From the NCBI GenBank assembly GCA_963719225.1, contig CAVRAY010000001.1, forward strand, positions 1,312,001-1,376,000: a stretch of DNA of 64,000 bases. The letters are read 5' to 3'. Made by a program: the position numbers and the translations under genes. The stretch is from Thermoanaerobaculia bacterium (GTDB lineage Bacteria > Acidobacteriota > Thermoanaerobaculia > UBA5066). A model generated the notes under the pieces. It searched no databases. It was not told the origin of the DNA and worked only from the letters and a program-made list of their open reading frames with translations. Below, in pieces: positions 17,861 through 54,214 of the stretch. How positions within the stretch are numbered: the stretch's first letter is position 1; the number at the start of each line of letters is the position of its first letter.

Positions 17861-17896
17861 GAGGAAGAGAAGAATTTCTTAGAAGGGTAAGTAAGG
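17861..17896 (+). repeat. Copy of the recurrent purine-tract + TTTCTTAGAAGGGTAAG motif (intergenic)
   Basis: GAGGAAGAGAAGAA-TTTCTTAGAA(17875-17884)-GGGTAAG. Confidence 0.7.
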
Positions 17897-18016
17897 CGGG
17901 GGCGGCAGGAGACGCCCCGGCGATTCCAGCGGCTGCGCCCGCAAGAAAAGCACCCTTTCCCGAACCGGAGCAAAGCAGGTTTGTGAGATCCTGTCTCTTC
18001 GAGAGGGAAGCAGACA

Positions 18017-19075
18017 TTGTCCACGACCATGCTCAACGAACAGACCGTTCTCGACGCGCTCAGGCAGGTCAAGTACCCCGGCTTCTCGCGCGACATCGTG
18101 TCCTTCGGTTTCGTCAAGGACCTCGCGGTCGGGGGCGGAAACGTCTCGTTCCGGCTGGCGCTGACGACGGACGCGCCCGCGGCCGCCGAGGCCATCAAAC
18201 AAGAGTGCGAGGCGGTTCTGCGCGGGCTCGAAGGCGTCCGGGCCGTCACGATCGCGGTGCAGGCCGCCCCGCCCCAGTCTCCCGTGATGGCCGGCGCCGT
18301 CGCCCGCAAGGACATCCTCAAGGACACGCGGTTTGTCGTGGCCATCGCCTCGGGCAAGGGCGGCGTCGGCAAGTCCACGGTCTCCGCGAATCTCGCGCTC
18401 GCCCTCAAGAAGCTCGGCTACGAAGTCGGGCTCATGGACTCGGACATCTACGGCCCGTCGCAGCAGATGATGATGGGCATCACGACGAAGCCGTTCGTGA
18501 ACGAGGAGGAGAAGATCCTCCCGATCGAGCGCTTCGGCGTGCGCGTCATGTCCATCGGCTTCCTGATGGACGTCGACACGCCGGTCATCTGGCGCGGCCC
18601 GATGATCTTCAAGGCCGTCGAGCAGTTCCTCGGCGACGTGGCGTGGGGGAAGCAGGACTTCCTCCTCGTGGACCTGCCCCCCGGAACGGGCGACGCGCAG
18701 CTCACGCTGACGCAGAAGGTCGCTCTTTCGGGCGCGGTCATCGTGACGACTCCCCAGGACGTCGCGCTCATCGACGCGCGCAAGGGCCTCGCGATGTTCC
18801 AGAAGGTGAACGTGCCCGTCCTCGGCATCATCGAGAACATGAGCTACTACGAGTGCCCGAAGTGCGGGAACCGCGACGAGATCTTCAAGCACGGGGGCGG
18901 GAAACGGACGGCGGAGCACCTCGGCGTGCCGTTCCTCGGGGAGGTCCCCATCGATCCGCGTGTCGCGATTCAGGGCGACGCCGGCACGCCGATCATGGTG
19001 GCCGAGCCGGAATCGACGGTGTCGAAGGCGTTCCTGAGACTCGCCGAGCAGGTGGCCAAGGCGGTAGGCGCCTGA
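18017..19075 (+). CDS. mrp: Mrp/NBP35 Fe-S cluster carrier ATPase
   Basis: N-terminal DUF59-like domain, SGKGGVGKST, DIYGPS, WRGPM, DLPPGTGD, CPKC. Confidence 0.93.
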   Translation: MSTTMLNEQTVLDALRQVKYPGFSRDIVSFGFVKDLAVGGGNVSFRLALTTDAPAAAEAIKQECEAVLRGLEGVRAVTIAVQAAPPQSPVMAGAVARKDILKDTRFVVAIASGKGGVGKSTVSANLALALKKLGYEVGLMDSDIYGPSQQMMMGITTKPFVNEEEKILPIERFGVRVMSIGFLMDVDTPVIWRGPMIFKAVEQFLGDVAWGKQDFLLVDLPPGTGDAQLTLTQKVALSGAVIVTTPQDVALIDARKGLAMFQKVNVPVLGIIENMSYYECPKCGNRDEIFKHGGGKRTAEHLGVPFLGEVPIDPRVAIQGDAGTPIMVAEPESTVSKAFLRLAEQVAKAVGA

Positions 19076-19159
19076 CGGCGCGGGCGGTCGGAGCCTGACC
19101 TCTCGCGGTACGTTTTTCCGGCGTTGCTAAGATCCGGTCCCAATCAAAAGGAGGACGTC

Positions 19160-19918
19160 ATGGACGGCATGAACCTTTTCGAGTCGCTGTTCCGGTGGGG
19201 ACACGTCGTCGCGGGTGTTCTGTGGATCGGCCTTCTGTGGTTCTTCAATTTCGTGAACTCGAACTTCGCGCCCACGATGGACGGCGACACGAAGAAGAAG
19301 GTCATCCCCGAGCTGATGCCGCGCGCCCTGTGGGCGTTCCGCTGGGGCGCCGCCTGGACGTGGATCACCGGCCTCGTGCTCCTCGGCGTCGTCTACTACA
19401 GCACGGGCCTCGTGTTCAAGGACCCGGCGGTGAAGACGTGGGGGACTGGCGGCATCGCCGTCCTCGTCGCGATCCTCTTCTTCGTCGTGTACGACCCGCT
19501 CGCGAAGGCGATCGCGAAGACCGAGATCCACTTCTGGCTCGGCCTCGTCGTCGCGACGGCCGCCGTTCTGTTCTTCTCGCACGTCGGAGGCTTCGGCTTC
19601 CGCGGCACCGCGATCCACGTCGGCGGCATGTTCGGGACGATCATGGCGGCGAACGTCTGGATGCGGATCTGGCCGGCGCAGAAGAAGATCATCGCGGCTA
19701 CGAAGAACGGCGAGAAGCCGGATCCGGCCCTCGTCGCCATGGCGGGCCTGCGAAGCAAGCACAACACGTACATGTCCGTGCCGTTGATTTTCATGATGCT
19801 GAACGCGCACGCCACGTGGGCCGCAAGCTACGAGTGGGCCTTGCCGCTCGTCGTCCTTCTGGGCTGGGCTTTCACCTACTGGATGTACAAGAAGGCAGCG
19901 ACCGTCAAGGGATTCTGA
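19160..19918 (+). CDS. PuuD-like (urate hydroxylase N-terminal) membrane protein without a cytochrome c domain
   Basis: RWGHVVAGVLWIGLLWFFNF, FRWGAAWTWITG, GTIMAANVW, RSKHNTYMSVP; AGGAGG RBS. Confidence 0.8.
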   Translation: MDGMNLFESLFRWGHVVAGVLWIGLLWFFNFVNSNFAPTMDGDTKKKVIPELMPRALWAFRWGAAWTWITGLVLLGVVYYSTGLVFKDPAVKTWGTGGIAVLVAILFFVVYDPLAKAIAKTEIHFWLGLVVATAAVLFFSHVGGFGFRGTAIHVGGMFGTIMAANVWMRIWPAQKKIIAATKNGEKPDPALVAMAGLRSKHNTYMSVPLIFMMLNAHATWAASYEWALPLVVLLGWAFTYWMYKKAATVKGF

Positions 19919-19943
19919 GAGGACCGGGAAAGACCAAAGAGTT

Positions 19944-20022
19944 TTTCTTAGAAGAGTGAGGAGGCTTCAGCGCGTTTCGTGCGCTCCGGCCGCGCCTCGC
20001 CGCAAATCCACTTTCTAAGAAA
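19944..20022. repeat. Inverted pair of the recurrent motif (intergenic)
   Basis: TTTCTTAGAAGAGTGAG (19944) ... CCACTTTCTAAGAAATC (core 20013-20022). Confidence 0.75.
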
Positions 20023-20042
20023 TCTTTCTCGGCTTTTTCTTC

Positions 20043-20058
20043 TGGCCTGCGCCTTGCT
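20043..20058 (+). promoter_or_regulatory. Putative sigma-54 (-24/-12) promoter of the CBS gene
   Basis: TGGCCTG-CGCC-TTGCT with exact GG-N10-GC spacing. Confidence 0.6.
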
Positions 20059-20066
20059 GCGAATAG

Positions 20067-20105
20067 CCTCCACGGGGAGTCCGCGAAGCCCCGTGGAGGT
20101 TTTTT
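20067..20105 (+). terminator. Terminator-like hairpin containing the CBS gene RBS
   Basis: Perfect 11-bp stem CCTCCACGGGG/CCCCGTGGAGG followed by T6, directly before ATG 20107. Confidence 0.55.
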
Positions 20106-20106
20106 C

Positions 20107-20580
20107 ATGAAGGCCAAGGACATCATGACGGAGAACATCGCGACCGCCACTCCCGAGACGCGCCTGGAAGACATCGCGAAAATGCTCGTCGCGCACGATT
20201 GCGGCGCGATTCCAATCCTGAAGAGTGAGAACTCGAAAAAGCCGGTCGGGATCGTCACCGATCGCGACATCGTCTGCCGCGTCTTCGCGGCCGGGAAGGA
20301 CCCGCGCGAGGCGACCGCGGGCGACTGCATGTCGAGCCCCTGTGTCACGGTGACGCCGGGGACGAAGCTGGACGCGTGCTGCACGACGATGGAGGAGAAC
20401 CGGATCCGCCGCCTCGTCGTCGTGGATCATGACGGCTTCTGCTGCGGGATCGTCTCCCAGGCCGACGTTGCGCGTCGCATCGCGGACAAGGCGGGAGAGA
20501 TCGTGAAGGAAGTCTCGCAGCCGACGGGCTCGGCCTCGGCCGTCACGCCGCGCGAGCAACCGGCGGAGGTCCATCACTAG
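20107..20580 (+). CDS. CBS-domain pair protein
   Basis: KDIMT, CGAIP, GIVTDRDI, IRRLVVV, GIVSQADV. Confidence 0.9.
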   Translation: MKAKDIMTENIATATPETRLEDIAKMLVAHDCGAIPILKSENSKKPVGIVTDRDIVCRVFAAGKDPREATAGDCMSSPCVTVTPGTKLDACCTTMEENRIRRLVVVDHDGFCCGIVSQADVARRIADKAGEIVKEVSQPTGSASAVTPREQPAEVHH

Positions 20581-20629: not shown

Positions 20630-22576
20630 TTGACAAGTTCGGGCCGGTCACTCCCGATTGTCGTCACCGTCGTCGCGCTCTCCGGCGTTGTTGGGCTGCC
20701 TTCCCGAGCGGCCACGAACAAGCCGCCGCTTCACGCGAAGAAGTGGCTCGCGATCACGGGCAAGCCGCTGGCCGCGACCGCGGGCGCGATGATCTTCCAG
20801 AAAGGCGGGAACGCCGTGGACGCGGCGGCCGCCATGATCGCCGCGACCGCCACGATGTGGGACACGCTGTCGTGGGGCGGCGAGACGCAGGCGCTGATCT
20901 ACAACCCGAAGACGGGCAAGGTCCTCGGCCTCAACGCGCTCGGCGTCGCGCCGACGGGAGCGACGCTGGAGTTCTTCAAGTCGAAGGGCATGCCGTATCC
21001 GCCCGAATACGGCCCGCTCGCCGCCGTCACACCCGGCACACCCGGGGGAATCATGGTCATGCTCGCCGAGTTCGGGAAGCTTTCGCTCGCCGAGGTCCTG
21101 GGGCCCGCGATCGAGATGGCCGACGGCTATCCCGTCGAGCAGCAGCACGTCTCGACGGCGTCGAGGCAGCGCGACTGGCTCCTGAAGTGGCCCGAGTCGC
21201 GGCGCGTCCTCCTGCCGCGTCCGGGCGACCAGCCGCCGCGGGCGGGGGAGATCTTCCGGCAGCCCGATCTCGCCGCGACGTTGCGGAAGCTCGTCGACGC
21301 CGAGAAGGAGGCGCTCGCGAAACGCAAGAGCCGGAAGGACGCGATCCTCGCGGCGTACGACCGCTTCTACAAGGGCGACATCGCGCAGGAGTTCGTGCGC
21401 GGCTCGCGCGAGGTCGGCGGCCTCCACACACTCGAGGACCTCGCGAAGTGGAAGGTCCGCATCGAGGAACCGGTGAAGACGACCTACAAGGGCATCGACG
21501 TCTACAAGCTCGACGTGTGGACGCAGGGTCCCGCGATGCTCCAGGCCCTGAACGTCCTCGAGGGCGTCGACCTCAAGGGAATGGGCTACAACAGTGCGCG
21601 CTACATCCACGCCCTCTATCAGGCGATGAGCCTCGCATTCGCGGACCGCGACTTCTACTACGGCGACCCATACTTCCCGCCCGCCGAACCCACGAAGGGC
21701 CTTCTCTCGAAGGAGTACGCGAAGAAGCGGGCAGCCACGATCGACTGGGCGAAGAACGATCCGAACGTGAAGCCCGGCGATCCGTACCCGTTCCAAGGAG
21801 AAGAGAATCCGTTCAAGATTTTCTTAGAAAGGTGGAAGACGACCCCGGCGCGCCGCGACGTCGCACCGGAATCCGCGACGCACCTCTCGCGCCACGAGGC
21901 TGGCCCGGCAGCGGCGGCCCAACTCTCGCGCCGCGACGCCGCCGCTTCCTCTTACCCATTCGAAGAATCTTCTTTTCCCTCCGACTCTTTCTTCGCCGGG
22001 ACGACCTCTGTCGAGGCGGCGGACGCGGAGGGATGGGTCGTCTCCGTCACTCCGTCGGGCGGCTGGCTGCCGGCGGTCATCGCAGGGAAGACCGGCATCG
22101 GCATGAGCCAGCGCATGCAGAGCTTCGTCCTTGACGGCGCGGACGGCCCCTTCAACGTTCTCGAGCCCGGCAAGCACCCGCGCGTGACGCTCACGCCGAC
22201 GCTCGCGCTGAAGGACGGCAGGCCGTACCTCTGCTTTTCGGTCCAGGGCGGCGACTCGCAGGATCAGAACCTCCTCCAGTTCTTCCTGAACGTCGTGGAG
22301 TTCGGAATGACGGTCCAGGAAGCCACCGAGGCGGCGAACGTCAACAGCTACCAGATGAGGAGCTCGTTCGGCGCGCACGAGTCGCGCCCGGGCGCGATGA
22401 TGATCCACGCCTCTCTTCCCGCCTGGGTGCGCGGCGAGCTCACGCGGATGGGCTACAAGCTCGAGCCCCACGCGAAGACCTCCGGGCCCATCAACGCGAT
22501 CTATCTCGACCGCGAGCACGGCACGATGTGGGGCGGGTCGAGCGACCACGGGGAGGACTACGGGATCGGGTGGTGA
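20630..22576 (+). CDS. ggt: Gamma-glutamyltransferase family (Ntn hydrolase), exported
   Basis: GGNAVDAA, FRQPDLAATL, FYKGDIA, AFADRD, GTTSVEAAD (Thr nucleophile); insertion before the cleavage site. Confidence 0.9.
   Translation: MTSSGRSLPIVVTVVALSGVVGLPSRAATNKPPLHAKKWLAITGKPLAATAGAMIFQKGGNAVDAAAAMIAATATMWDTLSWGGETQALIYNPKTGKVLGLNALGVAPTGATLEFFKSKGMPYPPEYGPLAAVTPGTPGGIMVMLAEFGKLSLAEVLGPAIEMADGYPVEQQHVSTASRQRDWLLKWPESRRVLLPRPGDQPPRAGEIFRQPDLAATLRKLVDAEKEALAKRKSRKDAILAAYDRFYKGDIAQEFVRGSREVGGLHTLEDLAKWKVRIEEPVKTTYKGIDVYKLDVWTQGPAMLQALNVLEGVDLKGMGYNSARYIHALYQAMSLAFADRDFYYGDPYFPPAEPTKGLLSKEYAKKRAATIDWAKNDPNVKPGDPYPFQGEENPFKIFLERWKTTPARRDVAPESATHLSRHEAGPAAAAQLSRRDAAASSYPFEESSFPSDSFFAGTTSVEAADAEGWVVSVTPSGGWLPAVIAGKTGIGMSQRMQSFVLDGADGPFNVLEPGKHPRVTLTPTLALKDGRPYLCFSVQGGDSQDQNLLQFFLNVVEFGMTVQEATEAANVNSYQMRSSFGAHESRPGAMMIHASLPAWVRGELTRMGYKLEPHAKTSGPINAIYLDREHGTMWGGSSDHGEDYGIGW
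21818..21970. repeat. Inverted motif pair inside ggt bracketing an in-frame insertion
   Basis: ATTTTCTTAGAAAGG (core 21820-21829) ... CCTCTTACCCATTCGAAGAATC (core 21959-21968). Confidence 0.7.
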
Positions 22577-25452: not shown

Positions 25453-27918
25453 CTATGCCAGCGAAGCCTGACGCGAGTCGCGCGCGCGGCGCACGAGGGC
25501 CACGAGGCCGCCCGCCATCATCACGTAGAAGCCTCCCCACACGAGGGAGATGAGGGGCTTCGTCGTCAGGTCGACGGAGAGCGTCTCGCCGGTCGCGGGC
25601 TTGAGGTCTCCTCCCGGCGCGACGCCGAGGAGCTCGATCTCGCAGATGCCTTCGTTCGGCGACACCTTGAGGAGCTTCAGGCGGCCCTTTCCGGGGAGGG
25701 CCGTCTCGGGCGACTCCGAGGCCGATTCCGCATTCGCCCCGCCGAAGTACATCACGAGCCGGGCGGTCTTCTCCTCGGAAGCCTCTGCGGTCGTCACGAG
25801 GAAATTGCCGGTCACGGTGACGTGCGGCCGCGCCGACGCGACCTGCGAGCGGTCGGCGGAAAAGTCGAGGAACTTCACCTTCACGCCCTCGACGGTCTTC
25901 GACTCGCCCTTCTTCAGGGCGAGCGTCGTGCCCTCGATGCGCGCGGACCGGCCCGGATCGTAGGCCTGGGGCGAGACGTAGAGGTCCATCAGCGGCGACG
26001 ACTTCACGTCGGGATTCGCCATCATCTGGTTCGTGCGCGTGTTCGTGTAGAGCTTCGGATATGCCTTCCAGACGCTCCGTCCGGGAGACGACACCTCGAC
26101 CTCCATGGCCTGCTTGGCGCGGCGGTCGGAGAGGTCCAACGAGTTGAGCTCTTCGAAGCGCTTCACGTCGCCGCTGTCCGTGACGAACACGGTGCGCGTG
26201 AACGTCAGGGTGTTGCGACCGACGCTGACGGGCTGGTTCCTGAGGAGGTTCACGGTCGTCCTCTTCTCGTAGACGCCCGAGATGAGGATGCCCACGAGCA
26301 TGATCGACATGCCGATGTGCGCGAGGTACCCGCCCATGGTCTTGACGGCCTTGCGCCTCACGAAGAGGACCGCGGTCTCGACGTTCGCGACGAAGCCGGC
26401 CACGGCGAGACCGAGGATCAGAAGGTCCCCCGTACCGCGTACGCCGGCCGCGAAGAAGACCCCGATGCCGAGGAGGCCCACGACGCCCGGGACGAGCGCC
26501 TTCCTGAGGACACCCTTGCCGCTCTCGCCGCGCCAGGATAGATACGGAACGAGAAGGAGGAGCAGGGCCATGAGCCCCGCGATCGGGCGATGCGTGACGT
26601 TGTAGAAGCTCGTGGCGACCTGCGAGGGCTTGCCCGCGATGCGCGTCAGGATCGGGGCCGAGGTCCCGAGCAGGATGACGAGGCCGGAGGCGCAAAAGAG
26701 CGTGACGGAGAGGATGAAGAGGACCGACCGCGACAGGAACGGCTCCTCTTTCTCCTTGCCGGTCGCCGCGTCCAAGTCGGAAACGACCGGGATCTCCTTC
26801 CAGCGCCACGCGAGGAGGCCGAGGCCGCCCACGAGGAAGACGAGGATGATCCCGACGAGCCAGCCCGTGATTCCGAGATCGATGAAGGAGTGGACGGAGA
26901 AGTCCGCGAGCACGCCGGAGCGCGTCAGGAACGTTCCGTAGAGGATGCAGCAGAAGGCGAGGATCGCGAGGATGATGTTGATCTTGCGGTGCTTTGCCCG
27001 CATCTTCTGAAGGAACATGCCGTGCACGAGCGCGACGGTCGCGAGCCACGGCACGAGCGACGTGTTCTCCACCGGGTCCCAGCCCCAGTAACCGCCCCAG
27101 CCGAGCGTCTTGTAGGCCCAGTACCCGCCCATGAGGATCGCGGTGCCGAGCGTGACGAACGTGAAGAGCGCCCAGGGCATCGCGCGGACGACCCACCCGT
27201 CCCAGCGCTTCATCCACAGAGCGCCGATCGCGAACGCGAACGGCACGGAGAGGGACGCGAAGCCGGAGAACATGACCGGCGGGTGGATGACCATCCACGG
27301 GTCCTGCAGGAGAGGGTTCAGTCCCTGGCCGTCGGCCGGGATCTGCGCGAGGAACCGGAACGGTGACTGCTTCACGAGGATCGCGACGATCCCGATGAAC
27401 GACGCGATGTAGACGATCATGACGGGAGCTTCCTGCTCCTTGGCGGATCTGAGGACGAAGAGCCCGATGAGGGAGCCCCAGAACAGCCACAGCAGGAACG
27501 AGCCTTCCTGCCCGGCCCAGAACGTGGAGAAGAGATAGTAGAAGGGAAGGTCACGCCCCGAATACGACGCCACGTACGAGATGCGGAAGTCATGCACGAG
27601 GAGGCGCGAGAGGAGCAGCACGGACGCGAGGACGATCGAGAACGTGAACGCGTAGTAGAGCCGCCGCGCGAAGAGGAGATTCTGAGAGAGAAGACTCGGA
27701 AGAGGACTTTCTTCGAATGGTAATAGGGCTGGGCCACCAGCCGTCGCGACTGCAGCGCCGGAGCTCCTCTTACCCTTTCTAAGAAAATCCCCGGCCGCGA
27801 ATCCCATACTGGGCATCGTTCGCAGGTACGCGAGCATGCACGTGAGTCCGAAGAGCAGCGCCGCCCAGATCGCGAGCGTGCCTGGCGCGAAGCCAAGAAG
27901 GCCGGGGAGATTGTTCAT
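25453..27918 (-). CDS. ccmF: Cytochrome c heme lyase CcmF (long form)
   Basis: WAGQEGS, GLNPLLQ, IHPP, WAYKTLGWGGYWGWDPVEN, FLTRSG, SVHSF. Confidence 0.93.
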   Translation of the reverse strand: MNNLPGLLGFAPGTLAIWAALLFGLTCMLAYLRTMPSMGFAAGDFLRKGKRSSGAAVATAGGPALLPFEESPLPSLLSQNLLFARRLYYAFTFSIVLASVLLLSRLLVHDFRISYVASYSGRDLPFYYLFSTFWAGQEGSFLLWLFWGSLIGLFVLRSAKEQEAPVMIVYIASFIGIVAILVKQSPFRFLAQIPADGQGLNPLLQDPWMVIHPPVMFSGFASLSVPFAFAIGALWMKRWDGWVVRAMPWALFTFVTLGTAILMGGYWAYKTLGWGGYWGWDPVENTSLVPWLATVALVHGMFLQKMRAKHRKINIILAILAFCCILYGTFLTRSGVLADFSVHSFIDLGITGWLVGIILVFLVGGLGLLAWRWKEIPVVSDLDAATGKEKEEPFLSRSVLFILSVTLFCASGLVILLGTSAPILTRIAGKPSQVATSFYNVTHRPIAGLMALLLLLVPYLSWRGESGKGVLRKALVPGVVGLLGIGVFFAAGVRGTGDLLILGLAVAGFVANVETAVLFVRRKAVKTMGGYLAHIGMSIMLVGILISGVYEKRTTVNLLRNQPVSVGRNTLTFTRTVFVTDSGDVKRFEELNSLDLSDRRAKQAMEVEVSSPGRSVWKAYPKLYTNTRTNQMMANPDVKSSPLMDLYVSPQAYDPGRSARIEGTTLALKKGESKTVEGVKVKFLDFSADRSQVASARPHVTVTGNFLVTTAEASEEKTARLVMYFGGANAESASESPETALPGKGRLKLLKVSPNEGICEIELLGVAPGGDLKPATGETLSVDLTTKPLISLVWGGFYVMMAGGLVALVRRARDSRQASLA
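27708..27789. repeat. Inverted motif pair inside ccmF bracketing an in-frame insertion
   Basis: TTTCTTCGAATGGTAATAGG (27708) ... CCTCTTACCCTTTCTAAGAAAATC (core 27777-27786). Confidence 0.75.
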
Positions 27919-29901: not shown

Positions 29902-30524
29902 GAGAGCGTCACGCGTTCGTCCGAGAGCGCCAGGTCTCGCGGGTCGTTCGATGCGATCACGGTGATTCCCCGGAGCCGCTGGGAGGTCACGACCTTCTCC
30001 ACGATGGAGCGGCCCGCCTCGTCCAGGTTCGCGCCCGGCTCGTCGAGGAGCAGCAGGTCGGGCTCGTGCAGCGTCGCGAACGCGAGCTTGACGCGCTGGC
30101 GCTGGCCCGTGGAGAGAGAGGAAAGAGATTTCTTCGAGTATGAAGATTCGGGCAGGCCGACCTCCGCGAGAAGCGCCTTCGCGATGGCCGGCCCGCCCAC
30201 CCGACCTCTTACTTTTTCGAAGAAAATCAGGTTCTCTTCGGCCGTCAACTCGCCATACAGAGAAAGATCGGGGGCGCACCACCCGATGCTGGGCATCACG
30301 TCGCGCGGCTCGTGCCCGCCGGCAGACTCTTCACCTTCCAAGAAAATCTTCGTGCTTCCTCCGCTCGGTCGCAGCAACCCCGCCAGGACCTTGAGGAGCG
30401 TCGTCTTTCCGCTCCCGTTCTCTCCCGCGACGCCGAGGACGTGTCCCTTCTCGACGCGGAACGAGACCGGCCCGAAGGCGCGGCGCCCGAAGGATCGCGA
30501 GAGGTTCTCGGCGACGAGGCGCAT
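29898..30524 (-). CDS. ccmA: Heme exporter ATPase
   Basis: GENGSGKTT, LSTGQRQR, LLLDEP; first gene of the ccm cluster. Confidence 0.85.
   Translation of the reverse strand: MRLVAENLSRSFGRRAFGPVSFRVEKGHVLGVAGENGSGKTTLLKVLAGLLRPSGGSTKIFLEGEESAGGHEPRDVMPSIGWCAPDLSLYGELTAEENLIFFEKVRGRVGGPAIAKALLAEVGLPESSYSKKSLSSLSTGQRQRVKLAFATLHEPDLLLLDEPGANLDEAGRSIVEKVVTSQRLRGITVIASNDPRDLALSDERVTLS
30127..30348. repeat. Three motif copies inside ccmA
   Basis: GATTTCTTCGAG (30127), CCTCTTACTTTTTCGAAGAAAATC (core 30216), CTTCACCTTCCAAGAAAATC (core 30336). Confidence 0.65.
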
Positions 30525-35658: not shown

Positions 35659-36864
35659 ATGAGGATCGCGGTCGTGGCCGGCGACGGGATCGGCCCGGAA
35701 GTGACGCGCGAGTCTCTGAAGGTGCTCGGTGCGCTGGCGTCGGTCGCCGAAGGCATGGCCCCTTCTCCTACTCGCGTGAACTCGCTTCGCTCAGACAGCA
35801 CGCTCGGGCGTCGAAGGGGTCATGCCTCCGGCTCCGATCCATTCATAGAAATCTCTCTATTCCCTTGGGGCGCAGATCACTATCTGAAAACGGGCGAGAC
35901 GCTTCCCCCGGGCGCGTTCGAGATGCTCGCGCGCGATTTCGACGCCGTCCTCGCTGGCGCCTTCGGCGACCCGCGTATCCCGGATGGGCGGCACGCGGAC
36001 GAGATCCTCCTCGGCATGCGCCACGGGCTCGACCTTTTCGCGAATGTCCGTCCCGTGCGCGCGCTCCACGACTCCCTCGTCCCGATTCGGAATGCGCGCG
36101 CCTCCGACGTCGACTTCGTCCTCTTCCGCGAGAACACCGAAGGAGCCTATTCGGGCCGGGGGCGCGTCGAAGGACCCGGGACCGCCGAGGAGGAGGCGGT
36201 GGAGGAGGATGTGACGACCCGGCGCGGCGTCGAGCGGATCTGCCGCGCGGCGTTCGCTTTCGCCGCGACCTTCGGGAAACCCCGGCGCCTTGGACGCCGG
36301 CCGCGCGTTCTCATGGCGGACAAGCACAACGTCCAGAAGCGCGGCGGCGGCCTGTGGCTGCGCGTCTTTCGCGAGGTGGCGAATGAATTTCCCGCCCTCG
36401 AGAGCCGGCACATGTTCGCGGACGCCCTCGCTCACGAGATGGTGAGGAACCCCGCCGCGCTGGACGTCGTCGTCACGAACAACCTCTTCGGCGACGTCCT
36501 GTCGGATCTCGGCGCCGCGCTGCAGGGAGGCCTCGGCCTCGCGCCATCCGGGAACGTGCGACCGAACAGCACGTCCGTCTTCGAACCGGTGCACGGCTCG
36601 GCGCCCGATCTCGCGGGGCAGGGGATCGCCAATCCCTTCGGCTCGATCCGGAGCCTCGGGATGCTGCTCGCGCACCTGGGCCGCGCGGATCTCGAGGGGC
36701 GGGTCGAAAACGCCGTCGCCGCCTGCGTGGCGGCGGGAGAGACGACGCGCGACCTGGGGGGAAAGCTCTCGACGGCAGAGGCCGGCGACGCCGTCGTCGC
36801 GCGGCTGGGCGACGGAACGGCTAGCAGGCTGCTGAAGAAAGGGCTCTTTTTCAAAGGAGCTTGA
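35659..36864 (+). CDS. leuB: Isocitrate/isopropylmalate dehydrogenase family (LeuB-like)
   Basis: GDGIGPEV, FRENTEGAY, NLFGDVLSDL, FEPVHGSAPD. Carries an N-terminal insertion; the last residues are encoded by the IS5 end. Confidence 0.8.
   Translation: MRIAVVAGDGIGPEVTRESLKVLGALASVAEGMAPSPTRVNSLRSDSTLGRRRGHASGSDPFIEISLFPWGADHYLKTGETLPPGAFEMLARDFDAVLAGAFGDPRIPDGRHADEILLGMRHGLDLFANVRPVRALHDSLVPIRNARASDVDFVLFRENTEGAYSGRGRVEGPGTAEEEAVEEDVTTRRGVERICRAAFAFAATFGKPRRLGRRPRVLMADKHNVQKRGGGLWLRVFREVANEFPALESRHMFADALAHEMVRNPAALDVVVTNNLFGDVLSDLGAALQGGLGLAPSGNVRPNSTSVFEPVHGSAPDLAGQGIANPFGSIRSLGMLLAHLGRADLEGRVENAVAACVAAGETTRDLGGKLSTAEAGDAVVARLGDGTASRLLKKGLFFKGA
35746..35832. repeat. Palindromic element inserted in frame in the leuB-like gene
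   Basis: 20-bp arms 35746-35765 and 35813-35832 (18/20), with an inner GCGTG/CACGC stem. Confidence 0.75.
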
Positions 36865-38153
36865 GCGGGAGAAGACACGTCAAGCTGAAAGAGGGGATTG
36901 CTTCGAGAGAGTGAGTCCGTGCTGCTCGCCTTTTTCGGCCCGCTTCGGTCGCACCGAGGGGCGCTTCAGGGGGAATCAGGCGGTCGAGGACTCCATTCGC
37001 GCCATTCGGACGAGGTTGTAGGCCGTCATCACGCTGAGGACGTGAGCCGCCACGCGGGCGAGTCCTCGGAAGCGCGTCTTGGCCAGGCCTCCGATGGTCT
37101 TACTCCAGCCGAAGATTTCTTCGACGCGCTTCCTGATTCGCTGGCTCACGGCGTAGCCCGCGTGTCTCGTCGTCCTTCGGTCGATGGCGCTGCGCCTGTT
37201 GGTGGTGTTCTGGGCCACGTGGGGCGTGACGCCTCTCTCTCGGAGCCTTTCGATGAAATCCCTCGTGTCGTAGCCCTTGTCGCCGGCCAGCGTGATGCGC
37301 TTGTCCGAGCCCAGCTCGTCGACCATGCCCAGTGCGGCCGACCTCTCCCCGTAGCCGTCGGCCGTCGTTACGCGCGCCTTCACGCACAGTCCGTTTCTGT
37401 TCTCCATCAAGACGTGGCCGAGGTAGCACAGCTGCGAAGGCTGGCCGTCTCCCTTCTTGTAGAGCTTGGCGTCGGGATCGGTCGTCGAGGCGTGCGTGTC
37501 GTTGCGCCTCTTCTGGCCGCGAAAGTCGACATCGGCGTTGCGGCCGCCAGGAGCTGGCGGCTCATCGCCGCCCTTACCGTCCTTGTCCTTCCGGGGCTGG
37601 AAGCTCTTCAAGGAGGCGTTCGCTTCGATCAGCGTGCCGTCCACGGTGAAGTGCTCGTCCGAGAGAAGAAACTTCTTGCGGGCCTGTGCGACGACTTCCG
37701 AGAAGAACTCCTCGAAGACCTCGGCCTCCAACAGTCTCTGGCGGTTCTTCGAGAAGGTCGTCGGATCGAAGGCCGGTGCAAGCCCCGGCATGTCCAGGAA
37801 CCAGCGGAAGAGAAAGTCGTACCCGAGCCGCTCGCAGAAGAGCCGCTCGCTTCTCACGCTGTACAGCGCGATGAGGATCTGCGCCTTGAGAAGCATCTCG
37901 GGCGGAATCGATGGACGCCCTCGCTCCGAGTACAGCCTGGCGAGCTTGGGCTCGAGACGCCTGAGCGCTTCGTCTGCAAGCGCCTTCACCTTGCGGATCG
38001 GGTGGTCCCGCGGCACGAGCTCCTCGGGCGTCATCGTCACGACAAGATCGACCTGCTTTTCGTTGTCTCCACGCATGCACATCAAGGTGCAGCCGCATCG
38101 CGCAGCAGTCAATGCCTCGCCGCGATTTTCAGGAGCCCTTTTTCAGCAGCCTG
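36825..38153 (-). mobile_element. IS5-family insertion sequence with CTAG target duplication
   Basis: TIRs CAGGCTGCTGAA(G)AAAGGGCTC at 36825-36846 and 38133-38153; CTAG at 36821-36824 and 38154-38157. Confidence 0.92.
36976..38076 (-). CDS. IS5-family DDE transposase (intact)
   Basis: VPRDHP, GRPSIPPE, YSVRSER, VDGTLIEA, GDKGYD, RKRVEEIFGW, YNLVRM. Confidence 0.93.
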   Translation of the reverse strand: MRGDNEKQVDLVVTMTPEELVPRDHPIRKVKALADEALRRLEPKLARLYSERGRPSIPPEMLLKAQILIALYSVRSERLFCERLGYDFLFRWFLDMPGLAPAFDPTTFSKNRQRLLEAEVFEEFFSEVVAQARKKFLLSDEHFTVDGTLIEANASLKSFQPRKDKDGKGGDEPPAPGGRNADVDFRGQKRRNDTHASTTDPDAKLYKKGDGQPSQLCYLGHVLMENRNGLCVKARVTTADGYGERSAALGMVDELGSDKRITLAGDKGYDTRDFIERLRERGVTPHVAQNTTNRRSAIDRRTTRHAGYAVSQRIRKRVEEIFGWSKTIGGLAKTRFRGLARVAAHVLSVMTAYNLVRMARMESSTA

Positions 38154-38477
38154 CTAGAGGACCCGGACGCGCACCTCGCGCATCGGCTCGGGCTCGTCGA
38201 GCTCCAGCTTCTCCTCGACGACGACGCGCTGAATGAGGCCCCGTTCCCCCTCGACGATCAGGGTGATGCCGGGCTCGATCTCGTCGAACGTCGCCTCGGC
38301 GACGGACTCGTCGGGGTTCTTCACGATGACCGACTCCACGACGGAGGGCTCGCCCGCGCGACCGGCGACGACGAGCCGGAACGTGGACGTCTCCTTGGCG
38401 TGCTTGTTTTTTTCCTTGCGGGCGAGCTCGCGGGCTCGCTTCTGCGCCCTTTTCTGGCGGATTTCCCAAGCCCTCAT
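38154..38477 (-). CDS. Hypothetical protein
   Basis: AAAGGAG RBS, GC3-rich codons, basic N-terminus and acidic beta-rich C-terminus. Confidence 0.7.
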   Translation of the reverse strand: MRAWEIRQKRAQKRARELARKEKNKHAKETSTFRLVVAGRAGEPSVVESVIVKNPDESVAEATFDEIEPGITLIVEGERGLIQRVVVEEKLELDEPEPMREVRVRVL

Positions 38478-45739: not shown

Positions 45740-46455
45740 CGGAGCGGCATCCGCGGCGCCGGCCCGGCCCGCAGGTCGGACGACTCTCCGAGACGAAGAA
45801 AGAAGAGAGACCCAGGGAGAAGATGCTTGGAAAGGGTCCCGAGCATCTGGACGACGAAGAGCTCCTCGCCATCGTTCTCGGCACGGGCAGCGTCCGTAGG
45901 CCGGTCCTCGAGATGGCGCACGACCTTCTCGCGGACGGCGGGTTCCCATCGCTGTTCGCGCGAGGCGCCGGCGATCTTCGCAGCCTCGTCCACGGAATCG
46001 GCCCGGCAAAGGCCACCCGCGTCGCGGCGATCCTCGAGATCGCGGCGCGTGTCTCCCATGATTCACTTTCTAAGAAAAATCTCCTCTCCGACCCTTCCTC
46101 CGTGAGCCGCTACCTCGTCGAGAGGCTCGCGCGCGAGACGCAGGAAGTCATGGGGGGCCTGCTCCTCGACTCCAAGAACCGCCTCGTGAAGGATGCTCTG
46201 TTGTTTCGCGGCACGGTGTCGCACGCGTCCGTCGCGCCCGCTCCGCTCTTCCGCCAGGCGATCCTCGCCGGAGCGGCAGGAGTGATCCTGTATCACAACC
46301 ACCCCTCGGGCGACCCCGAGCCTTCGCCCGAGGACCTCGCGACGACGCAGCGTTTCGCCGCGGCGGGCCGCGAGATCGGCATCGAGGTGAAGGACCACGT
46401 GATCGTGGGGCGCGGCCGGTGGGTCTCGTTCCACGATCGGGGGCTCCTGCGCTGA
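45736..46455 (+). CDS. radC: RadC (JAB/MPN) family protein
   Basis: RPREK, ELLAIVLGTG, GIGPAKA, HNHPSGDPEPS..D, DHVIVG. Confidence 0.92.
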   Translation: MTERHPRRRPGPQVGRLSETKKEERPREKMLGKGPEHLDDEELLAIVLGTGSVRRPVLEMAHDLLADGGFPSLFARGAGDLRSLVHGIGPAKATRVAAILEIAARVSHDSLSKKNLLSDPSSVSRYLVERLARETQEVMGGLLLDSKNRLVKDALLFRGTVSHASVAPAPLFRQAILAGAAGVILYHNHPSGDPEPSPEDLATTQRFAAAGREIGIEVKDHVIVGRGRWVSFHDRGLLR

Positions 46456-46465
46456 GGGAAACGGC

Positions 46466-49340: not shown

Positions 49341-52017
49341 TTGACGCTCGCACCAGGTTCGAAGCTCGGCCCGTACGAAATCCTCTCGCCCCTCGGTGCC
49401 GGCGGAATGGGAGAGGTTTACAGAGCCCGTGACGCGCGCCTCGGTCGCGAGGTTGCGGTCAAGGTCCTGCCGGAAGAATTCTTCGAAGACAAGGAACGGG
49501 TCACCCGCTTCGAAAGGGAAGCGAAGCTGCTTGCGGCGCTGAATCACCCGAACATCGCGGCCGTCTATTCATTCGAAGAAATCCCCGGTTCTCCGGGGTC
49601 TCCTGGTTCCTCCAGCCGTCACCTGCTCGTCATGGAGCTCGTGGCGGGCGACACGCTGCGCGAGCGGATGCGAGACGGGGCGCTGCCGGCGCGCAAAGCC
49701 GTGGAGATCGCCGTTCAGATCGCGGAGGGCCTGGCCGCCGCGCACGAGAAAGGGATCGTCCACCGGGACCTCAAGCCCGAGAACATCGTCCTGTCGAGAG
49801 ACGGCCGGGTCAAGATCCTCGACTTTGGCCTCGCGAAGCTCTTGCCGCGGGCCACCGCCGGTGACGACCCCACATCGGCCGGGACGCGGTCGCTTCTCAC
49901 GGAAGCCGGAACCGTGTTCGGGACCGTAAGCTACATGTCGCCGGAGCAGGTGTTCGGAGAGCCCGTCGACGGGCGCTCCGACATCTTCACCTTCGGGACG
50001 ATCCTCTACGAGCTGCTCTCGGGGACGAACCCCTTCCGGTCCGCGACGTCCGCCGAGACGATGACGGCGATCCTCAGGCACGAGCCGCCGCCGCTTTCGG
50101 AGCCGCCGCTCGCCGTGGCGCCGGCGCTCTCGGAGATCGTCGCGCGCTGCCTCGACAAGAGGCCGGAAAAGCGCTTTCAGACGGCGGAGGATCTCGCCTT
50201 CGGCCTGGAGATGTCGTCAGGCGCTTCGCTCTCGGCGGCGCCTGTTACGGGCCGGCACCCGGGTCGCCGCGTCGTCTGGGCGGTCGCAGGAGCCTGTGTC
50301 GCCGGCCTAGTTCTCGGCGCCTCGGCCGCTTTTCTGCTGAGGAGCCACTCGCGCGTCGCGCCGGCGAAGTCCATCCGCTTCACGATTCCGCCCCCTGAGA
50401 ACGGCTCCTTCTCTTTTGGGATCGAGTCGACGAGCCTCGCCTTCTCGCCGGACGGATCGCAGCTCGCATACATTGCCTCGGATCCGAAAGTAGGGCGACG
50501 CATCTGGCTCCGGGCCCTGTCCGGCTTCGAGGCGCGGCCGCTGGCGGGCACTGAGGAAGCCTGGTCGGTTTTCTGGTCCCCCGGCGGGTCGTCGATCGGG
50601 TTCTTCGCCGAGAACAAGCTGAAGCGTCTCGACCTTCCGGGAGGTGCGCCCGTTTCGGTCTGCGAGGTCGCCGGTGGAAGCGGCAAGTCGGGCACCTGGG
50701 GACGCGGTGGCGACATCCTTTTCGCCAGCGCCCAGGGCGATGCGATCTATCGCGTCTCTGCGTCCGGCGGTACTCCGGCCGCCATTCTGAAGCCCGACGC
50801 CTCGGTCGGCGAAACGCGGGTCGTCTGGCCCTGGTTCCTGCCGGACGGCGAGAGGTTCCTCTATTACGCGCGCGTCTTGGGCGGAGGAAAAGTCATGCTG
50901 AAAGAGCCCGGACGGCCTCCGCGTCTCGTGCTGACCGCGGCCTCGATGGCTCAGTACTCCGACCCGGGCTATCTCGTTTTCGTGAAAGACGGCGTTCTCC
51001 TCGGCCAGCCGTTCGACGCGGGCAGCGGGCGTCTGTCGGGACGTCCGTTTTCGATCGCCGATCACGTCCGCTACTTCATGTCGACGGCCGCCGGGTCGTT
51101 CGCCACGTCTCGGGGGGGCACCCTCGCGTTTCAGCCGCAGAACGACGTCCATCGCCTCGTGTGGTTCGACCGGACGGGCCGTGAGCTCGGGACGATCGGG
51201 ATGCCCGCCGAATATCTCGGCGTCCGGATCCCGGCGGACGGCAGCCCCGTTCTCTTCGATCGCGCCCGAGCCGACCTCGGGACGTTCGACGTCTGGTCGT
51301 ACGACGTCGAACGAAACGTCGAGACGCGCGTGACGTCTTCGCCGGACAGCGAGTTCGCGGCAATCTGGCTTCCCCGGCGGAAAGAGCGTTCTTTTCTCGG
51401 CGGTGAGGGGGTCGCCCCCTCGTCTCGTGCGTCGGGACCTCGCGACGGGCACGGAGAAGGAGCTCCTCCCGGAGGGCGGCTTTCAGAACGTCGGTGACAT
51501 CTCGCCGGACGGCCGGACGCTCGTGTACTTCGAGAGGAGCGACAGGAGTCCCTTCGCAATGTGGGCGCTTCCGCTCTCGGGGGAGGGAAAGCCGCGCCGC
51601 CTCCTCGAAGGGGCTTCCCTGGAGGACGATGCACGATTTTCGCCCGACGGCCGCTTCCTCGCGTTCATCTCCGGCGAGTCGGGGCAGCCCGAGGCCTACG
51701 TGATGCCGTTTCCGGGACCCGGGGAGAAGACACGGGTCTCGACGGGAGGCGCGAGCGTCGTGCGCTGGAGCCGAGACGGTCACGAGCTTCTCTACCTGGC
51801 CGGCGACCGGCGCATGACGTCGGTGCCGGTCAGGACCTACCCGTCGCTCCAGCTGGGTGCGTCCAAACCGCTTTTCGAGCTGAAGGGGCGGTTGAGCTGG
51901 ATCGCCTTCGATGTCTCCCCGGACGGCAAGCGTTTCCTCGCCGTGGTCCCGGAAGCGCTGGCCGACGATCTTCCCCTGAGCGTCGTCGTCAACTGGTCGT
52001 CCGACGTGGAGAAGTAG
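49341..52017 (+). pseudogene. Ser/Thr kinase with TM and TolB/PD40 beta-propellers, single frameshift at 51372-51375
   Basis: GAGGMG, HRDLKPEN, DFG, FSPDG repeats. Removing one C joins ORFs 49341-51497 and 51403-52017 as WLPGGKSVLFS. Possibly a sequencing error. Confidence 0.85.
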
Positions 52018-52039
52018 CCCGCGGTATCCTCGATTCTTC

Positions 52040-54214
52040 ATGGCGCGCCGCTACTTCACGACCCCGATCTACTACGTCAACGACCGGCCCCACATCGGGC
52101 ATCTCTACACCACGGTCGTCACGGACACGCTTGCCCGTTATTTCCGCCTCGCGGGGGAGGACGTGCGTCTTCTGACCGGCACGGACGAGCACGGGCAAAA
52201 CATCGAGAAGGTCGCGAAGAAGGAGGGCGTCGCCCCCATCGTCGTGGCCGACCGGCACGCGCCGACGTTCCGGAACCTGTGGAAGGAGTTCGGGATCGCG
52301 AACGACGACTTCATCCGGACGACCGAGCCGAGGCACCGCGTGGGCGTCGAGGAGATCATCCGACGCATCGACGCGGCGGGCGACCTCTATACCGCCTCTC
52401 ACGAAGGCTGGTATTGCGCGCCGTGCGAGGCGTTCTACCCGGAGAAGGACCTCGTGGACGGCAAGTGCCCCGTCCACGGGACGACGCTCGAGCTGCAGAA
52501 GGAAGAGAACGTCTTCTTCCGCCTCTCACGTTATGCCGGCCGCCTCCTCGAGCTGTATGGCGCAAAGAACGCCGACGGTCAGCCGTTCGTCTATCCCGAG
52601 AGCCGTCTCAACGAGGTTCGATCGTTCGTGGAATCCGGTCTCAAGGATCTCTCGGTGTCGCGGACGTCCATCACGTGGGGCATCCCGTTCCCGGGCCGGC
52701 CGGGCCACGTCGTCTACGTGTGGCTCGACGCGCTCGTGAACTACATCACCGCGCTCGGATTCGGCTCGAAGGACGAGACGCTCTACGAACGCTACTGGCC
52801 GGGCATCCACGTGATCGGGAAGGACATCCTGAGGTTCCACGCGGTCTACTGGCCCGCGTTCCTCATGTCGGCAGGTCTCGACGTTCCGCGGCAGGTCGTG
52901 AGCCACGGCTGGTGGCTGCGCGACGCGAAGAAGATGTCCAAGTCCACGGGCAACGTCGTCAAGCCCGACGAGCTCGTCGCCGCGTTCGGCGTCGACGCGC
53001 TGCGCTGGCACCTCGTCTCGGCGATGTCGTTCGGGCAGGACGCGAGCTTCTCCGACGAGGACTTTCTCGCCGGGTACAACGCGGATCTCGCGAACGGAAT
53101 CGGGAACACGCTCTCGCGCGCGGTGAAGATGTCGAGGGATTTCTTCGAAGGTAGAACGCCGCCGGAGAGGGATTCGAAGAAAAATTCCTTCGAATGGCCG
53201 AAGACCGCCACGGATCGGATCGCGAGATGGCGCACGGCATTCGAGGGCTACCGCCTTCATGAGGCCGCCGGCGAGATCCGATCGTTCCTGCAGCTCGTGG
53301 ACAGCTACATCACGACCAACCAGCCGTGGCGCACCCCGGCAGATCTTTCGCTCGAAGAAATCTCCCGGTTCCGCTCGCACGTGCTTTTCGACTGCCTCGA
53401 AGCTCTGCGCATCGCGGCCTGCCTTCTCGCGCCCATCGCGCCGCGCGCCGCGACGGAGATCTTCCGACGTCTCGGCGTCGACAAGCGCGCAGAAGACGTC
53501 CGCGGAGCCGACCTCGCGTGGGGCCAGCTTCCGCTCAGCGCCCCGCTCCCGTCCGCGCCGCCGCTCTTTCCGAGGGCGGACGCGAAAGAATATTTTGCTT
53601 CCAGAGGCGAATCCACGGGCAGTGCCTCCAAGGAGAGATCAGTGGCAGACGAAAGGTCCGAAGGTTCTTCGAAAGGTGTGTCTCAGGCAGGTGCCGCGGC
53701 GGGCGGCGGGGCTGATGGTGGCGCATCGCCCGCGCCGTCGCCGGCGGCCGGCGGCAGCGCGGGCGCGCTGACAGCGCCCGAGGCTGGTCGTTCTTCTCTT
53801 AATTCCCCTTCTAAGCAAAATCCACCATCGCCATCCGCTCCACCGCAGCAGGCGACGACTCCTGCTTCGCCCGGCGCGTCCGAAAGCAAAATCCCAATCT
53901 CCGACTTCCTGAGGATCGACCTTCGCGTGGGAGAGGTGATCGCGGCGGAGAAGGTGGAAAAGTCGAAGAAGCTGATGAAGATGACGGTGAAGCTCGGCGA
54001 CGAGGTGCGGACGATCGTCGGCGGCATCGCGACCGCATACACGGCCGAGCAGCTCGTCGGGAAGAAGTTCGCCTTCGTCGCGAACCTTCAGCCCGCGAAG
54101 CTCATGGGCGTCGAGTCGAACGGCATGATCCTCGCCGCCACCTTCCCGGAGACCGGCGAGCCGTCGCTCCTCATGGTCGATCCCTCGGTGCCTTCGGGAG
54201 CGAAGGTCAAGTAG
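52040..54214 (+). CDS. metG: Methionine--tRNA ligase with C-terminal tRNA-binding domain
   Basis: TTPIYYVN, HIGH, GTDEHG, KMSKS, DLRVG...GVESNGMIL. Confidence 0.96.
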   Translation: MARRYFTTPIYYVNDRPHIGHLYTTVVTDTLARYFRLAGEDVRLLTGTDEHGQNIEKVAKKEGVAPIVVADRHAPTFRNLWKEFGIANDDFIRTTEPRHRVGVEEIIRRIDAAGDLYTASHEGWYCAPCEAFYPEKDLVDGKCPVHGTTLELQKEENVFFRLSRYAGRLLELYGAKNADGQPFVYPESRLNEVRSFVESGLKDLSVSRTSITWGIPFPGRPGHVVYVWLDALVNYITALGFGSKDETLYERYWPGIHVIGKDILRFHAVYWPAFLMSAGLDVPRQVVSHGWWLRDAKKMSKSTGNVVKPDELVAAFGVDALRWHLVSAMSFGQDASFSDEDFLAGYNADLANGIGNTLSRAVKMSRDFFEGRTPPERDSKKNSFEWPKTATDRIARWRTAFEGYRLHEAAGEIRSFLQLVDSYITTNQPWRTPADLSLEEISRFRSHVLFDCLEALRIAACLLAPIAPRAATEIFRRLGVDKRAEDVRGADLAWGQLPLSAPLPSAPPLFPRADAKEYFASRGESTGSASKERSVADERSEGSSKGVSQAGAAAGGGADGGASPAPSPAAGGSAGALTAPEAGRSSLNSPSKQNPPSPSAPPQQATTPASPGASESKIPISDFLRIDLRVGEVIAAEKVEKSKKLMKMTVKLGDEVRTIVGGIATAYTAEQLVGKKFAFVANLQPAKLMGVESNGMILAATFPETGEPSLLMVDPSVPSGAKVK
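53138..53822. repeat. Cluster of motif copies inside metG
   Basis: GATTTCTTCGAAGGTAG (core 53140) with TTCGAAGAAAAAT (53173); TTCCTTCGAATGG (53185) with CTCGAAGAAATC (53351); TTCTTCGAAAGGTG (53665) with CCCTTCTAAGCAAAATC (core 53809). Confidence 0.65.

What the first reader, a model, noticed from the sequence alone, without database searches (positions are those of the whole stretch)
17861..53822. Recurrent ~20-bp AT-rich motif in inverted pairs, written into both genes and intergenic DNA
Seen: core TTTCTT(A/C)GAA, extended consensus about GATTTTCTTMGAARGGTRAGAGG, usually with an outward purine tract. Forward cores: 17875, 19944, 21820, 27708, 30129, 49478, 53140, 53664. Reverse cores: 20013, 21959, 27777, 30216, 30336, 46068, 49572, 53173, 53809. 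Weaker copies lie near 45823, 53185 and 53351. Most form forward-then-reverse pairs about 30-150 bp apart with unrelated spacers, so this is not one MITE sequence. Copies force AT-rich codons (TTA, AGA, AAT, TCT) into a GC-rich genome. Some overlay ordinary protein regions (ccmA ENLIFFEKVRG, radC HDSLSKKNLL, kinase PEEFFEDK and YSFEEIP); others bracket in-frame insertions. Established: Neisseria DUS and Pasteurellaceae USS uptake sequences, and REP/RPE elements, show a similar mix of inverted pairs and coding-sequence invasion. Inference: a DNA-level signal under selection or molecular drive, such as an uptake sequence, a nucleoid-protein site or a recombinase/transposase end. I cannot assign it to a known family.
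Basis: partly seen in the sequence, partly recalled or inferred. Interest (0 to 1): 0.85.

Follow-up and report, generated by a model that had tools for sequence, protein, structure and literature searches.

The report
Facing DNA marks bounding swapped patches
One genus of soil Acidobacteria carries hundreds of copies of a short DNA word, mostly as two facing copies about 60-200 bases apart written even over essential genes, and at the genes examined the stretch they enclose has been swapped between species as a unit, so the pair is likely a self-spreading signal for DNA exchange whose reader is still unknown.

Summary
The motif is real: a polar 22-bp word (RRRWTTTCTTMGAARGKGRARR plus an outward purine tract), 803 strong copies in this 4.75-Mb Thermoanaerobaculia genome (540 in CDS against 61-63 after codon shuffling). 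Neighbouring copies face each other (248 convergent, 5 divergent). The arms do not co-vary, have no helical phasing and no terminator bias. It is abundant in all 25 genomes of the genus tested, weaker in one sister genus, at background elsewhere in the class. Two things are added here. Density rises about 2.7-fold from the origin half to the terminus half. And the bracketed segments are mosaic: in metG a roughly 300-bp tract ending 30-40 bp outside the arms moved across a genus border, while motif-free lineages show no such discordance there; ccmA and a five-genome sample point the same way, more weakly. RAYT, Ssn nuclease, IS ends, dif half-site and a genus-specific integrase were tested and not supported. 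Best reading (0.45): an uptake-sequence-like exchange signal spread by molecular drive, differing from DUS/USS in working as a spaced facing pair. Rivals: chromosome-structure site, break-and-patch hotspot, orphan MITE. No reader protein was found; uptake bias is untested.

The parts
17871..17892 (+). forward arm, intergenic (DASS transporter / apbC); partner lost in this genome
   Evidence: 33.0 bits; forward arm in 8 relatives and reverse arm in 7; segment 17863-17963 replaced by 111 other letters in related contigs
19940..20026 (.). facing pair (arms 19940+ and 20005-), intergenic short unit
   Evidence: 26.5 and 32.3 bits; spacer in opposite orientation in G021; unit absent in G017 and mostly deleted in G008; collapsed to 20 letters in related contigs
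21816..21972 (.). facing pair inside the gamma-glutamyltransferase gene, bracketing a variable in-frame linker
   Evidence: joint 21813-21979 in a related contig
27704..27790 (.). facing pair inside ccmF, an in-frame insertion that relatives keep whole, halve or lose
   Evidence: joint 27700-27783 in a related contig
30125..30349 (.). three arms (30125+, 30208-, 30328-) written over ccmA; the two paired arms replace residues without length change
   Evidence: 3 of 18 alleles motif-free; G022 and G023 carry motif patches on the flank background of the motif-free alleles
46060..46081 (-). reverse arm inside radC; possible decayed partner near 45819 (6.7 bits)
49474..49585 (.). facing pair inside a Ser/Thr kinase gene; 17 pairs genome-wide have this 90-bp spacing, several shown to share spacers as kinase paralogues
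53105..53401 (.). exchanged tract in metG, with arms 53136+, 53181+ and 53343- written over conserved MetRS sequence
53660..53822 (.). facing pair in the MetRS linker; spacer deleted in G009

Best explanation
The facing pair is a DNA-level mark, kept in core DNA across one genus, that likely causes the 100-300 bp segment it brackets to be exchanged between lineages by recombination, and so would spread by molecular drive, much as uptake sequences do. Shown: over-representation, polarity and pairing, arm conservation while spacers change, restriction to conserved genes in the region sampled, a rise toward the terminus, and lateral replacement of bracketed tracts with ends 30-40 bp outside the arms (metG; weaker evidence at ccmA and in a five-genome sample). 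Inferred: a lineage-specific protein reads each arm on its own (no co-variation, no helical phase), probably on incoming DNA during natural transformation, and favours survival or integration of the fragment between two arms; homologous integration overwrites protein sequence, occasional illegitimate integration gives the short inserted units; the terminus bias would reflect more repair from outside DNA where no sister copy is at hand.
For: metG: G294 (sister genus) matches its sister G290 in 217 of 268 informative sites outside window 53100-53400 but the genus member G003 in 68 of 83 inside; the inner spacer alone, arms left out, rejects G294+G290 (p-AU 0.003) and G009+G042 (0.0003), and the flanks reject the three patch groupings (p < 1e-40) (groups named). 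Control on the same segment: among motif-free alleles the nearest flank neighbour stays 86-100% identical inside at 90-100% flank identity, whereas most comparisons involving a motif allele fall to 59-79% at 90-93% (44 alleles); the derived state needs at least 6 changes on the flank tree. ccmA: G022 and G023 are 52% and 48% identical to flank neighbour G012 between arms 2 and 3. Five-genome sample: strongly discordant windows 21% inside pairs (47 overlapping windows, 14 genes), 7.4% near, 1.3% far in the same genes, 2.7% in site-free genes. Related contigs have joints at the bounds of 3 pairs and the single arm (one study). 0 sites in 26 genes without orthologues (33 kb) against 40 in 191 conserved genes (208 kb). 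ComEC, ComEA and DprA are present. DUS are reported to be core-enriched, to arise by recombination and to be enriched in conversion fragments (PMC2397512, passages).
Against: No reader found: the FimT/GspH-like pilin beside comEA is in 47 of 50 family genomes, motif-negative ones included, and competence genes are common in bacteria. The gene-level test is marginal (10 of 14 genes, Wilcoxon p 0.049) and a four-taxon site count showed no excess discordance inside pairs (24 of 34 sites fit the species tree). G000+G003 was not rejected by the inner spacer (p 0.41) and G000-M427 stays 89% inside. Tract ends at the arms could follow simply from alleles being too divergent inside to host a crossover. 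ggt is discordant along its whole length, so background exchange exists. DUS need no partner and their pairs are terminators at most 21 nt apart; a terminus gradient is not predicted by uptake drive. G004 may show a loss rather than a retained ancestral allele.
Confidence: 0.45

Rival explanations
1. Binding sites of a chromosome-organising protein (a MatP/Noc-like role) that holds two facing sites and loops the DNA between them, needed most in late-replicating DNA; patches move between species because they are beneficial.
For: 120 loci in the origin half against 321 in the terminus half, in coding and intergenic DNA alike and in all three codon classes; 56 of 83 forward hits within 1 Mb of dif in G044 (from the cut listing); 22 of 27 genus dif loci have a site within 270 bp; arms kept while spacers change, both arms in 73 of 99 comparisons; a second ParB is encoded beside dif.
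Against: No helical phasing. That ParB is in 90 of 91 order genomes with a nearly unchanged recognition helix in motif-negative genera, and no motif lay at dif in the motif-negative loci whose output was visible. Exchange also occurs between alleles that both carry pairs. Gaps of 60-150 kb have no site.
Confidence: 0.2
2. Recipient-side hotspot: the pair is cut, or folds back in single-stranded DNA and breaks, and the gap is patched from any available template or end-joined; arms persist because patches usually bring them back.
For: Deletions with one end in an arm core (metG linker G009; 19928-20041 and 27700-27783); two spacer inversions, at different offsets from the core; Ku in 16 of 16 genus genomes against 1 of 17 in g13; repair without a sister copy fits the terminus bias (inference).
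Against: Ku is present in motif-negative G079 and G217 and not found in motif-positive G178. Real arm partners pair no better than swapped ones (-15.00 against -14.98 kcal/mol; identity 13.48 against 13.51). No inversion in 98 comparisons with four genomes. Breakage alone should erode the sites (inference).
Confidence: 0.17
3. An orphan MITE/REPIN-like element whose arms are its ends, moved by an unrecognised or lost transposase; coding copies are domesticated relics.
For: Whole units are present or absent at orthologous sites; short units at unrelated loci share spacers above background (score 36 or more: 20 against 5; 32 or more: 74 against 22, of about 33,000 pairs); modal spacing 72-76 bp resembles the 71-bp REPIN doublet (PMC3116915, passages).
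Against: 149 of 248 pairs lie within one gene and those aligned bracket native or near-native sequence; the only repeats of 90% identity or more that hold a site are IS copies; no compensatory changes; Y1 transposases are rarer in the genus and have their own different ends; no target duplication was evident by eye at the empty sites.
Confidence: 0.13
4. Operator of a global transcription regulator, or an RNA-level signal (terminator, processing stem).
For: Intergenic DNA is about four times richer per base; the core TTC-N3-GAA is dyad-like; lexA has sites on both sides.
Against: 546 of 803 sites are inside CDS, 274 sense and 272 antisense; no preference among convergent, tandem and divergent gaps (4.7, 6.2, 3.9 per 10 kb) and no G-U over A-C excess on the sense strand (305 against 296); no Rfam match in 17000-48500.
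Confidence: 0.05

Closest known systems
DNA uptake sequences: DUS (Neisseriaceae, ComP receptor) and USS (Pasteurellaceae)
   Same: Lineage-restricted, hundreds of copies, polar core with degenerate flanks, written into proteins in all frames, core-genome enriched, tied to conversion tracts (PMC2397512 passages; bioRxiv 10.1101/2025.10.24.684340 passages).
   Different: Most copies are facing pairs 56-212 bp apart inside genes, not terminator hairpins; tracts seen here are about 300 bp and end at the arms (DUS fragments average 573-1734 nt); terminus gradient; no receptor or uptake bias shown.
REPINs / BIMEs with RAYT transposases
   Same: Inverted doublets with a variable spacer, similar modal spacing, presence/absence at orthologous sites (PMC3116915 passages).
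   Different: Mostly intragenic, arms are not REP hairpins, no compensatory change, no associated RAYT.
NTS/SRM repeats with Ssn GIY-YIG nucleases
   Same: Hundreds of copies, linked to transformation (PMC11893778, abstract and sections 6 and 10).
   Different: No short hairpin motif; genus genomes other than G000 hold only one long-frame (UvrC-type) GIY-YIG match; the one short frame lies in a site-free region.
Chromosome-organising sites: matS/MatP, NBS/Noc, parS/ParB, KOPS (recalled, no paper read)
   Same: Position-biased protein-binding words that overlay genes.
   Different: Facing pairs, no replichore polarity (unpaired sites 141 co-directional, 166 head-on), far more copies, lateral patch exchange.
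Rickettsia palindromic elements and other MITEs in coding DNA (search listing only; otherwise recalled)
   Same: In-frame insertions into protein loops.
   Different: No fixed internal sequence or length; many copies replace residues instead of inserting.

Membership tests
DUS/USS uptake sequences | strong lineage-specific over-representation, also in coding DNA | tested here: met
DUS/USS uptake sequences | enriched in core genes, rare in accessory DNA | tested here: met
   0 in 33 kb against 40 in 208 kb, one 300-kb region only
DUS/USS uptake sequences | association with gene-conversion tracts | tested here: met
   (metG, ccmA); marginal; site count negative
DUS/USS uptake sequences | competence machinery present | tested here: met
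   ComEC, ComEA, DprA in G000
DUS/USS uptake sequences | inverted pairs are closely spaced terminators | tested here: not met
DUS/USS uptake sequences | sequence-biased DNA uptake | not testable with these tools
   needs cells
DUS/USS uptake sequences | cognate minor-pilin receptor | tested here: inconclusive
   one candidate, present in 47 of 50 family genomes; other pilins not examined
REPIN/BIME | extragenic location | tested here: not met
   546 of 803 sites in CDS
REPIN/BIME | hairpin kept by compensatory change | tested here: not met
REPIN/BIME | RAYT gene flanked by the repeat | tested here: not met
   3 of the 4 genus Y1 loci fetched, all with other ends
NTS/Ssn | small GIY-YIG gene flanked by the repeat | tested here: not met
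MITE / IS ends | near-identical copies and an autonomous partner with the same ends | tested here: not met
   (IS5-family ends differ; no repeated units); other IS families not each inspected
dif / pdif Xer sites | motif equals an Xer arm of the host dif | tested here: not met
   host dif arms differ
Invertons | frequent inversion with a fixed crossover point | tested here: not met
   0 of 98; 4 candidates among 312 comparisons, 2 confirmed by eye, with different offsets
ParB/Noc/MatP-type chromosome sites | positional bias on the ori-ter axis | tested here: met
ParB/Noc/MatP-type chromosome sites | cognate protein co-distributed with the site | tested here: inconclusive
   second ParB is order-wide; no genome-wide screen for other proteins was possible

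The most novel reading that the evidence does not exclude
A dedicated, undescribed system in which a lineage-specific protein reads two facing sites and hands the enclosed 100-300 bp to recombination as a cassette, so that bacteria exchange marked micro-patches of essential genes across species and genus borders, mostly in late-replicating DNA.
Probability: 0.25. Interest if true: 0.93.

Novelty: new variant of a known kind. Interest (0 to 1): 0.78.

Why it matters
Uptake-type signals are established in two families of host-associated Proteobacteria (recalled; the papers read treat only these two). A third, independent case in soil Acidobacteria, built as a spaced facing pair that seems to set the ends of the exchanged DNA, would give a new test of the drive-versus-function question, because motif-positive, partly positive and negative sister genera exist. 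It rewrites 15-30 residues of enzymes such as MetRS and moves them across 20% sequence divergence, which matters for protein evolution and for marker-gene trees. Even under the rival reading it would be a new terminus-biased chromosome site. Not found in print by three searches: Thermoanaerobaculia, repeat, inverted, motif: 0 papers; 15 of 31 listed, none on topic; 0 papers; the library lacks most subscription papers, and no supplements were read.

Tried and rejected
dif half-site: a recalled resemblance to a pdif arm failed against the host's own dif. Second ParB beside dif as reader: order-wide, helix nearly unchanged. RAYT: three strict hits near the G044 Y1 gene proved to be ordinary neighbours; the element has its own ends. 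IS ends: weak hits at window 36894 and 4483 are not the element termini for the IS5-family element; IS110 has no close second copy to define ends. Extra integrase: the four non-Xer integrases of G000 sit in island-like or unlinked contexts and counts vary from 3 to 13 in the genus; they were not aligned across genomes. Ku: imperfect match to motif presence. Hairpin selection, helical phasing, replichore polarity, terminator role: negative. Apparent position turnover of the ggt reverse arm was a length change of the outer tract. Viruses: no strict pair in two scans; 3 single hits in 33-41% GC contigs look like chance. Plasmids: no match to one unit. Sequencing runs held at most 0.21 of the words and were contigs only, so one search shows alleles of relatives, not events within a population, and nothing on expression. 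A read-level check of the radC, kinase and metG pairs stayed unchecked. A fifth comparison genome was not obtained, so the window test rests on four relatives. Rows dropped: G178 (frameshifted in the patch); M423.
Full report
Source and method. The window is G000:C1:1312001-1376000 of a 4.75-Mb, 68% GC genome in two contigs. A strict pair pattern scanned over the species collection gave 120 loci; 78 of the 80 listed come from Thermoanaerobaculia or Acidobacteriota records, so the lineage is inferred from its relatives. Genes were called with my own hexamer model (4069 genes, 90% coding); some pairs labelled intergenic lie in genes it missed (seen), so class counts are approximate.

The motif. 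TTTCTTAGAA and its overlaps are the most over-represented 9- to 11-mers (197 against 1.15). The iterated 22-bp matrix reads RRRWTTTCTTMGAARGKGRARR; purine content stays raised for about 30 bp on the outer side only. 803 sites reach 18 bits; 546 are in CDS in all six frames, 237 intergenic, 20 straddling. Synonymous shuffling drops 540 CDS hits to 61-63. Neighbours within 260 bp: 248 forward-reverse, 35 and 31 same-strand, 5 reverse-forward; of 307 unpaired sites 121 have a partner of 10 bits or more on the inner side against 13 on the outer. The two arms of a pair are no more alike than random arms (13.48 against 13.51 of 22) and pair no better, spacing has no 10.5-bp period, and there is no transcription or fork polarity. 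Each arm therefore looks like an independent protein site (inference).

Distribution. The strict 12-mer occurs 27-245 times in 25 of 25 genus genomes and 0 times in 16 of 16 from other families of the order. Over 251 class genomes a looser 11-mer gives 144-453 in the 14 genus members, 118 and 28 in two genomes of sister genus g11, and 0-46 in the other 235. A changed motif in other genera would be missed by these patterns. An assembly artefact is excluded by orthologous, in-frame copies in many independent genomes.

Position on the chromosome. dif lies at C1:2037568 near the skew maximum, dnaA at C2:326 kb. With clusters collapsed and 90-bp pairs removed, 120 loci fall in the origin half and 321 in the terminus half. 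The rise holds in intergenic DNA (30 to 97 per 100 kb, contig ends left out) and coding DNA (7 to 21); intergenic A+T and permuted matrices show no such trend. It assumes the two contigs join in the given order. G044 agrees (56 of 83 forward hits within 1 Mb of dif; listing was cut). 22 of 27 genus dif loci carry a site within 270 bp, but this is one intergenic gap in related genomes.

Evolution of single loci. Two forms exist. Inserted units sit in gaps and loops (ccmF, MetRS linker) and are kept, halved or deleted. Overwritten arms replace residues in place: outgroups and several genus members keep the ancestral MetRS and CcmA sequence, others carry the motif peptides. Arms outlast spacers: both arms are kept in 73, one in 17, none in 9 of 99 comparisons at 43 loci, a few of them paralogue matches. 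Inside coding pairs amino-acid divergence is about 2-4 times that of distant codons in the same genes and fourfold-site divergence is equal or modestly higher.

Mosaic tracts. In metG the segment between the arms does not follow the flanks. G294 of genus g11 is 90% identical to its sister G290 on both flanks, 64% inside, and 86% identical inside to G003. Informative sites switch at about window 53105 and back at about 53401, that is 30 and 37 bp outside the outer arms. G009 and G004 switch over about the same interval (76 of 96 and 94 of 109 sites inside side with the non-sister). AU tests support this, with groups named post hoc. With 19 further alleles from metagenome contigs (44 alleles analysed) motif-free lineages show no such discordance in the same segment, and alleles within one patch family are as close inside as outside, which points to exchange, not hypermutation. 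ccmA repeats the pattern for G022 and G023, and correlation with a reference distance matrix falls to 0.02-0.15 in its motif windows against 0.33-0.64 outside. Against: ccmF has low values away from the motif too, ggt is discordant throughout, the five-genome gene-level test is marginal (p 0.049) and the four-taxon site count is negative. Contigs of related organisms from one study show replacement or deletion at 17863-17963, 19928-20041, 21813-21979 and 27700-27783 (only the best-supported joints were shown, and other shown joints are not at motifs). Two spacer inversions and a modest excess of shared spacers at unrelated loci show that units sometimes flip or copy.

Tested without support: Y1/RAYT, GIY-YIG/Ssn, IS ends, extra integrases, the second ParB beside dif, the pilin beside comEA, Ku. 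ComEC, ComEA and DprA are present. No whole-genome presence/absence screen was possible.

Mechanism and odds. The features match what is reported for DUS (core enrichment, origin by recombination, enrichment in conversion fragments; PMC2397512, passages) except the spaced facing pair and the gradient. I give 0.45 to an exchange signal spread by drive through transformation, 0.20 to a chromosome-structure site whose patches hitch-hike, 0.17 to a recipient-side break-and-patch hotspot, 0.13 to an orphan mobile element and 0.05 to a regulatory or RNA role. It works like an uptake sequence as far as genomes can show; membership is not established, one defining feature (terminator-type pairs) is not met and uptake bias is untested.

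Literature seen. PMC2397512, PMC3116915 and bioRxiv 10.1101/2025.10.24.684340: passages. PMC11893778: abstract and two sections. PMC12616744, PMC3868556 and the RPE papers: listings only. matS, NBS, parS, KOPS and pdif are recalled. Earlier AI notes of this scan had seen the same motif in other genomes; they are leads, not support, and two word searches found none on mosaic tracts or the gradient.

Noticed in passing
G000:C1:2037868-2039524 (L190, L231): A second parA-parB pair; the parB lies beside or near dif in most order genomes whose loci were visible, apart from the usual pair near the origin. Its binding site is unknown.
   Followed up: partly
G017 and G008 loci L351-L390; one copy in G000 C1: A separate short hairpin repeat (ends GTCAAGGG and CCCTTGAC) lies within 250 bp of the motif in 7 of 7 and 2 of 3 sampled cases.
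   Followed up: no
L416:3201-4195, L417:1326-2451, L418:1432-2450: Y1 (RAYT-like) transposase genes with their own 26-bp inverted ends; the family is in 4 of 26 genus genomes but 17 of 17 of genus g13.
   Followed up: partly
window 36821-38157: IS5-family element, 9 near-identical copies in the genome, starting and ending with CTAG.
   Followed up: partly
window 4722-5627: Short IS110-family transposase frame (NCBIfam) with one distant copy at 75% identity.
   Followed up: no
G000:C1:1890656-1892367: Ku gene, found in 16 of 16 genus genomes tested, next to a conserved gene for a protein that looks like an HTH-containing partner; no ligase gene recognised beside it.
   Followed up: partly
G000:C2:230135-231488 (L412) and C1:1007213-1007921 (L413): Both ComEA-like genes have motif copies at their start or inside.
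   Followed up: no
G000:C1:54955-61413: Long G, T and A homopolymer runs in a site-free, skewed region; possibly an assembly problem or an island.
   Followed up: no
G000 C1 600 kb-3.55 Mb: The most replichore-skewed 8-mers share GGGGAG, a KOPS-like word distinct from the motif.
   Followed up: no
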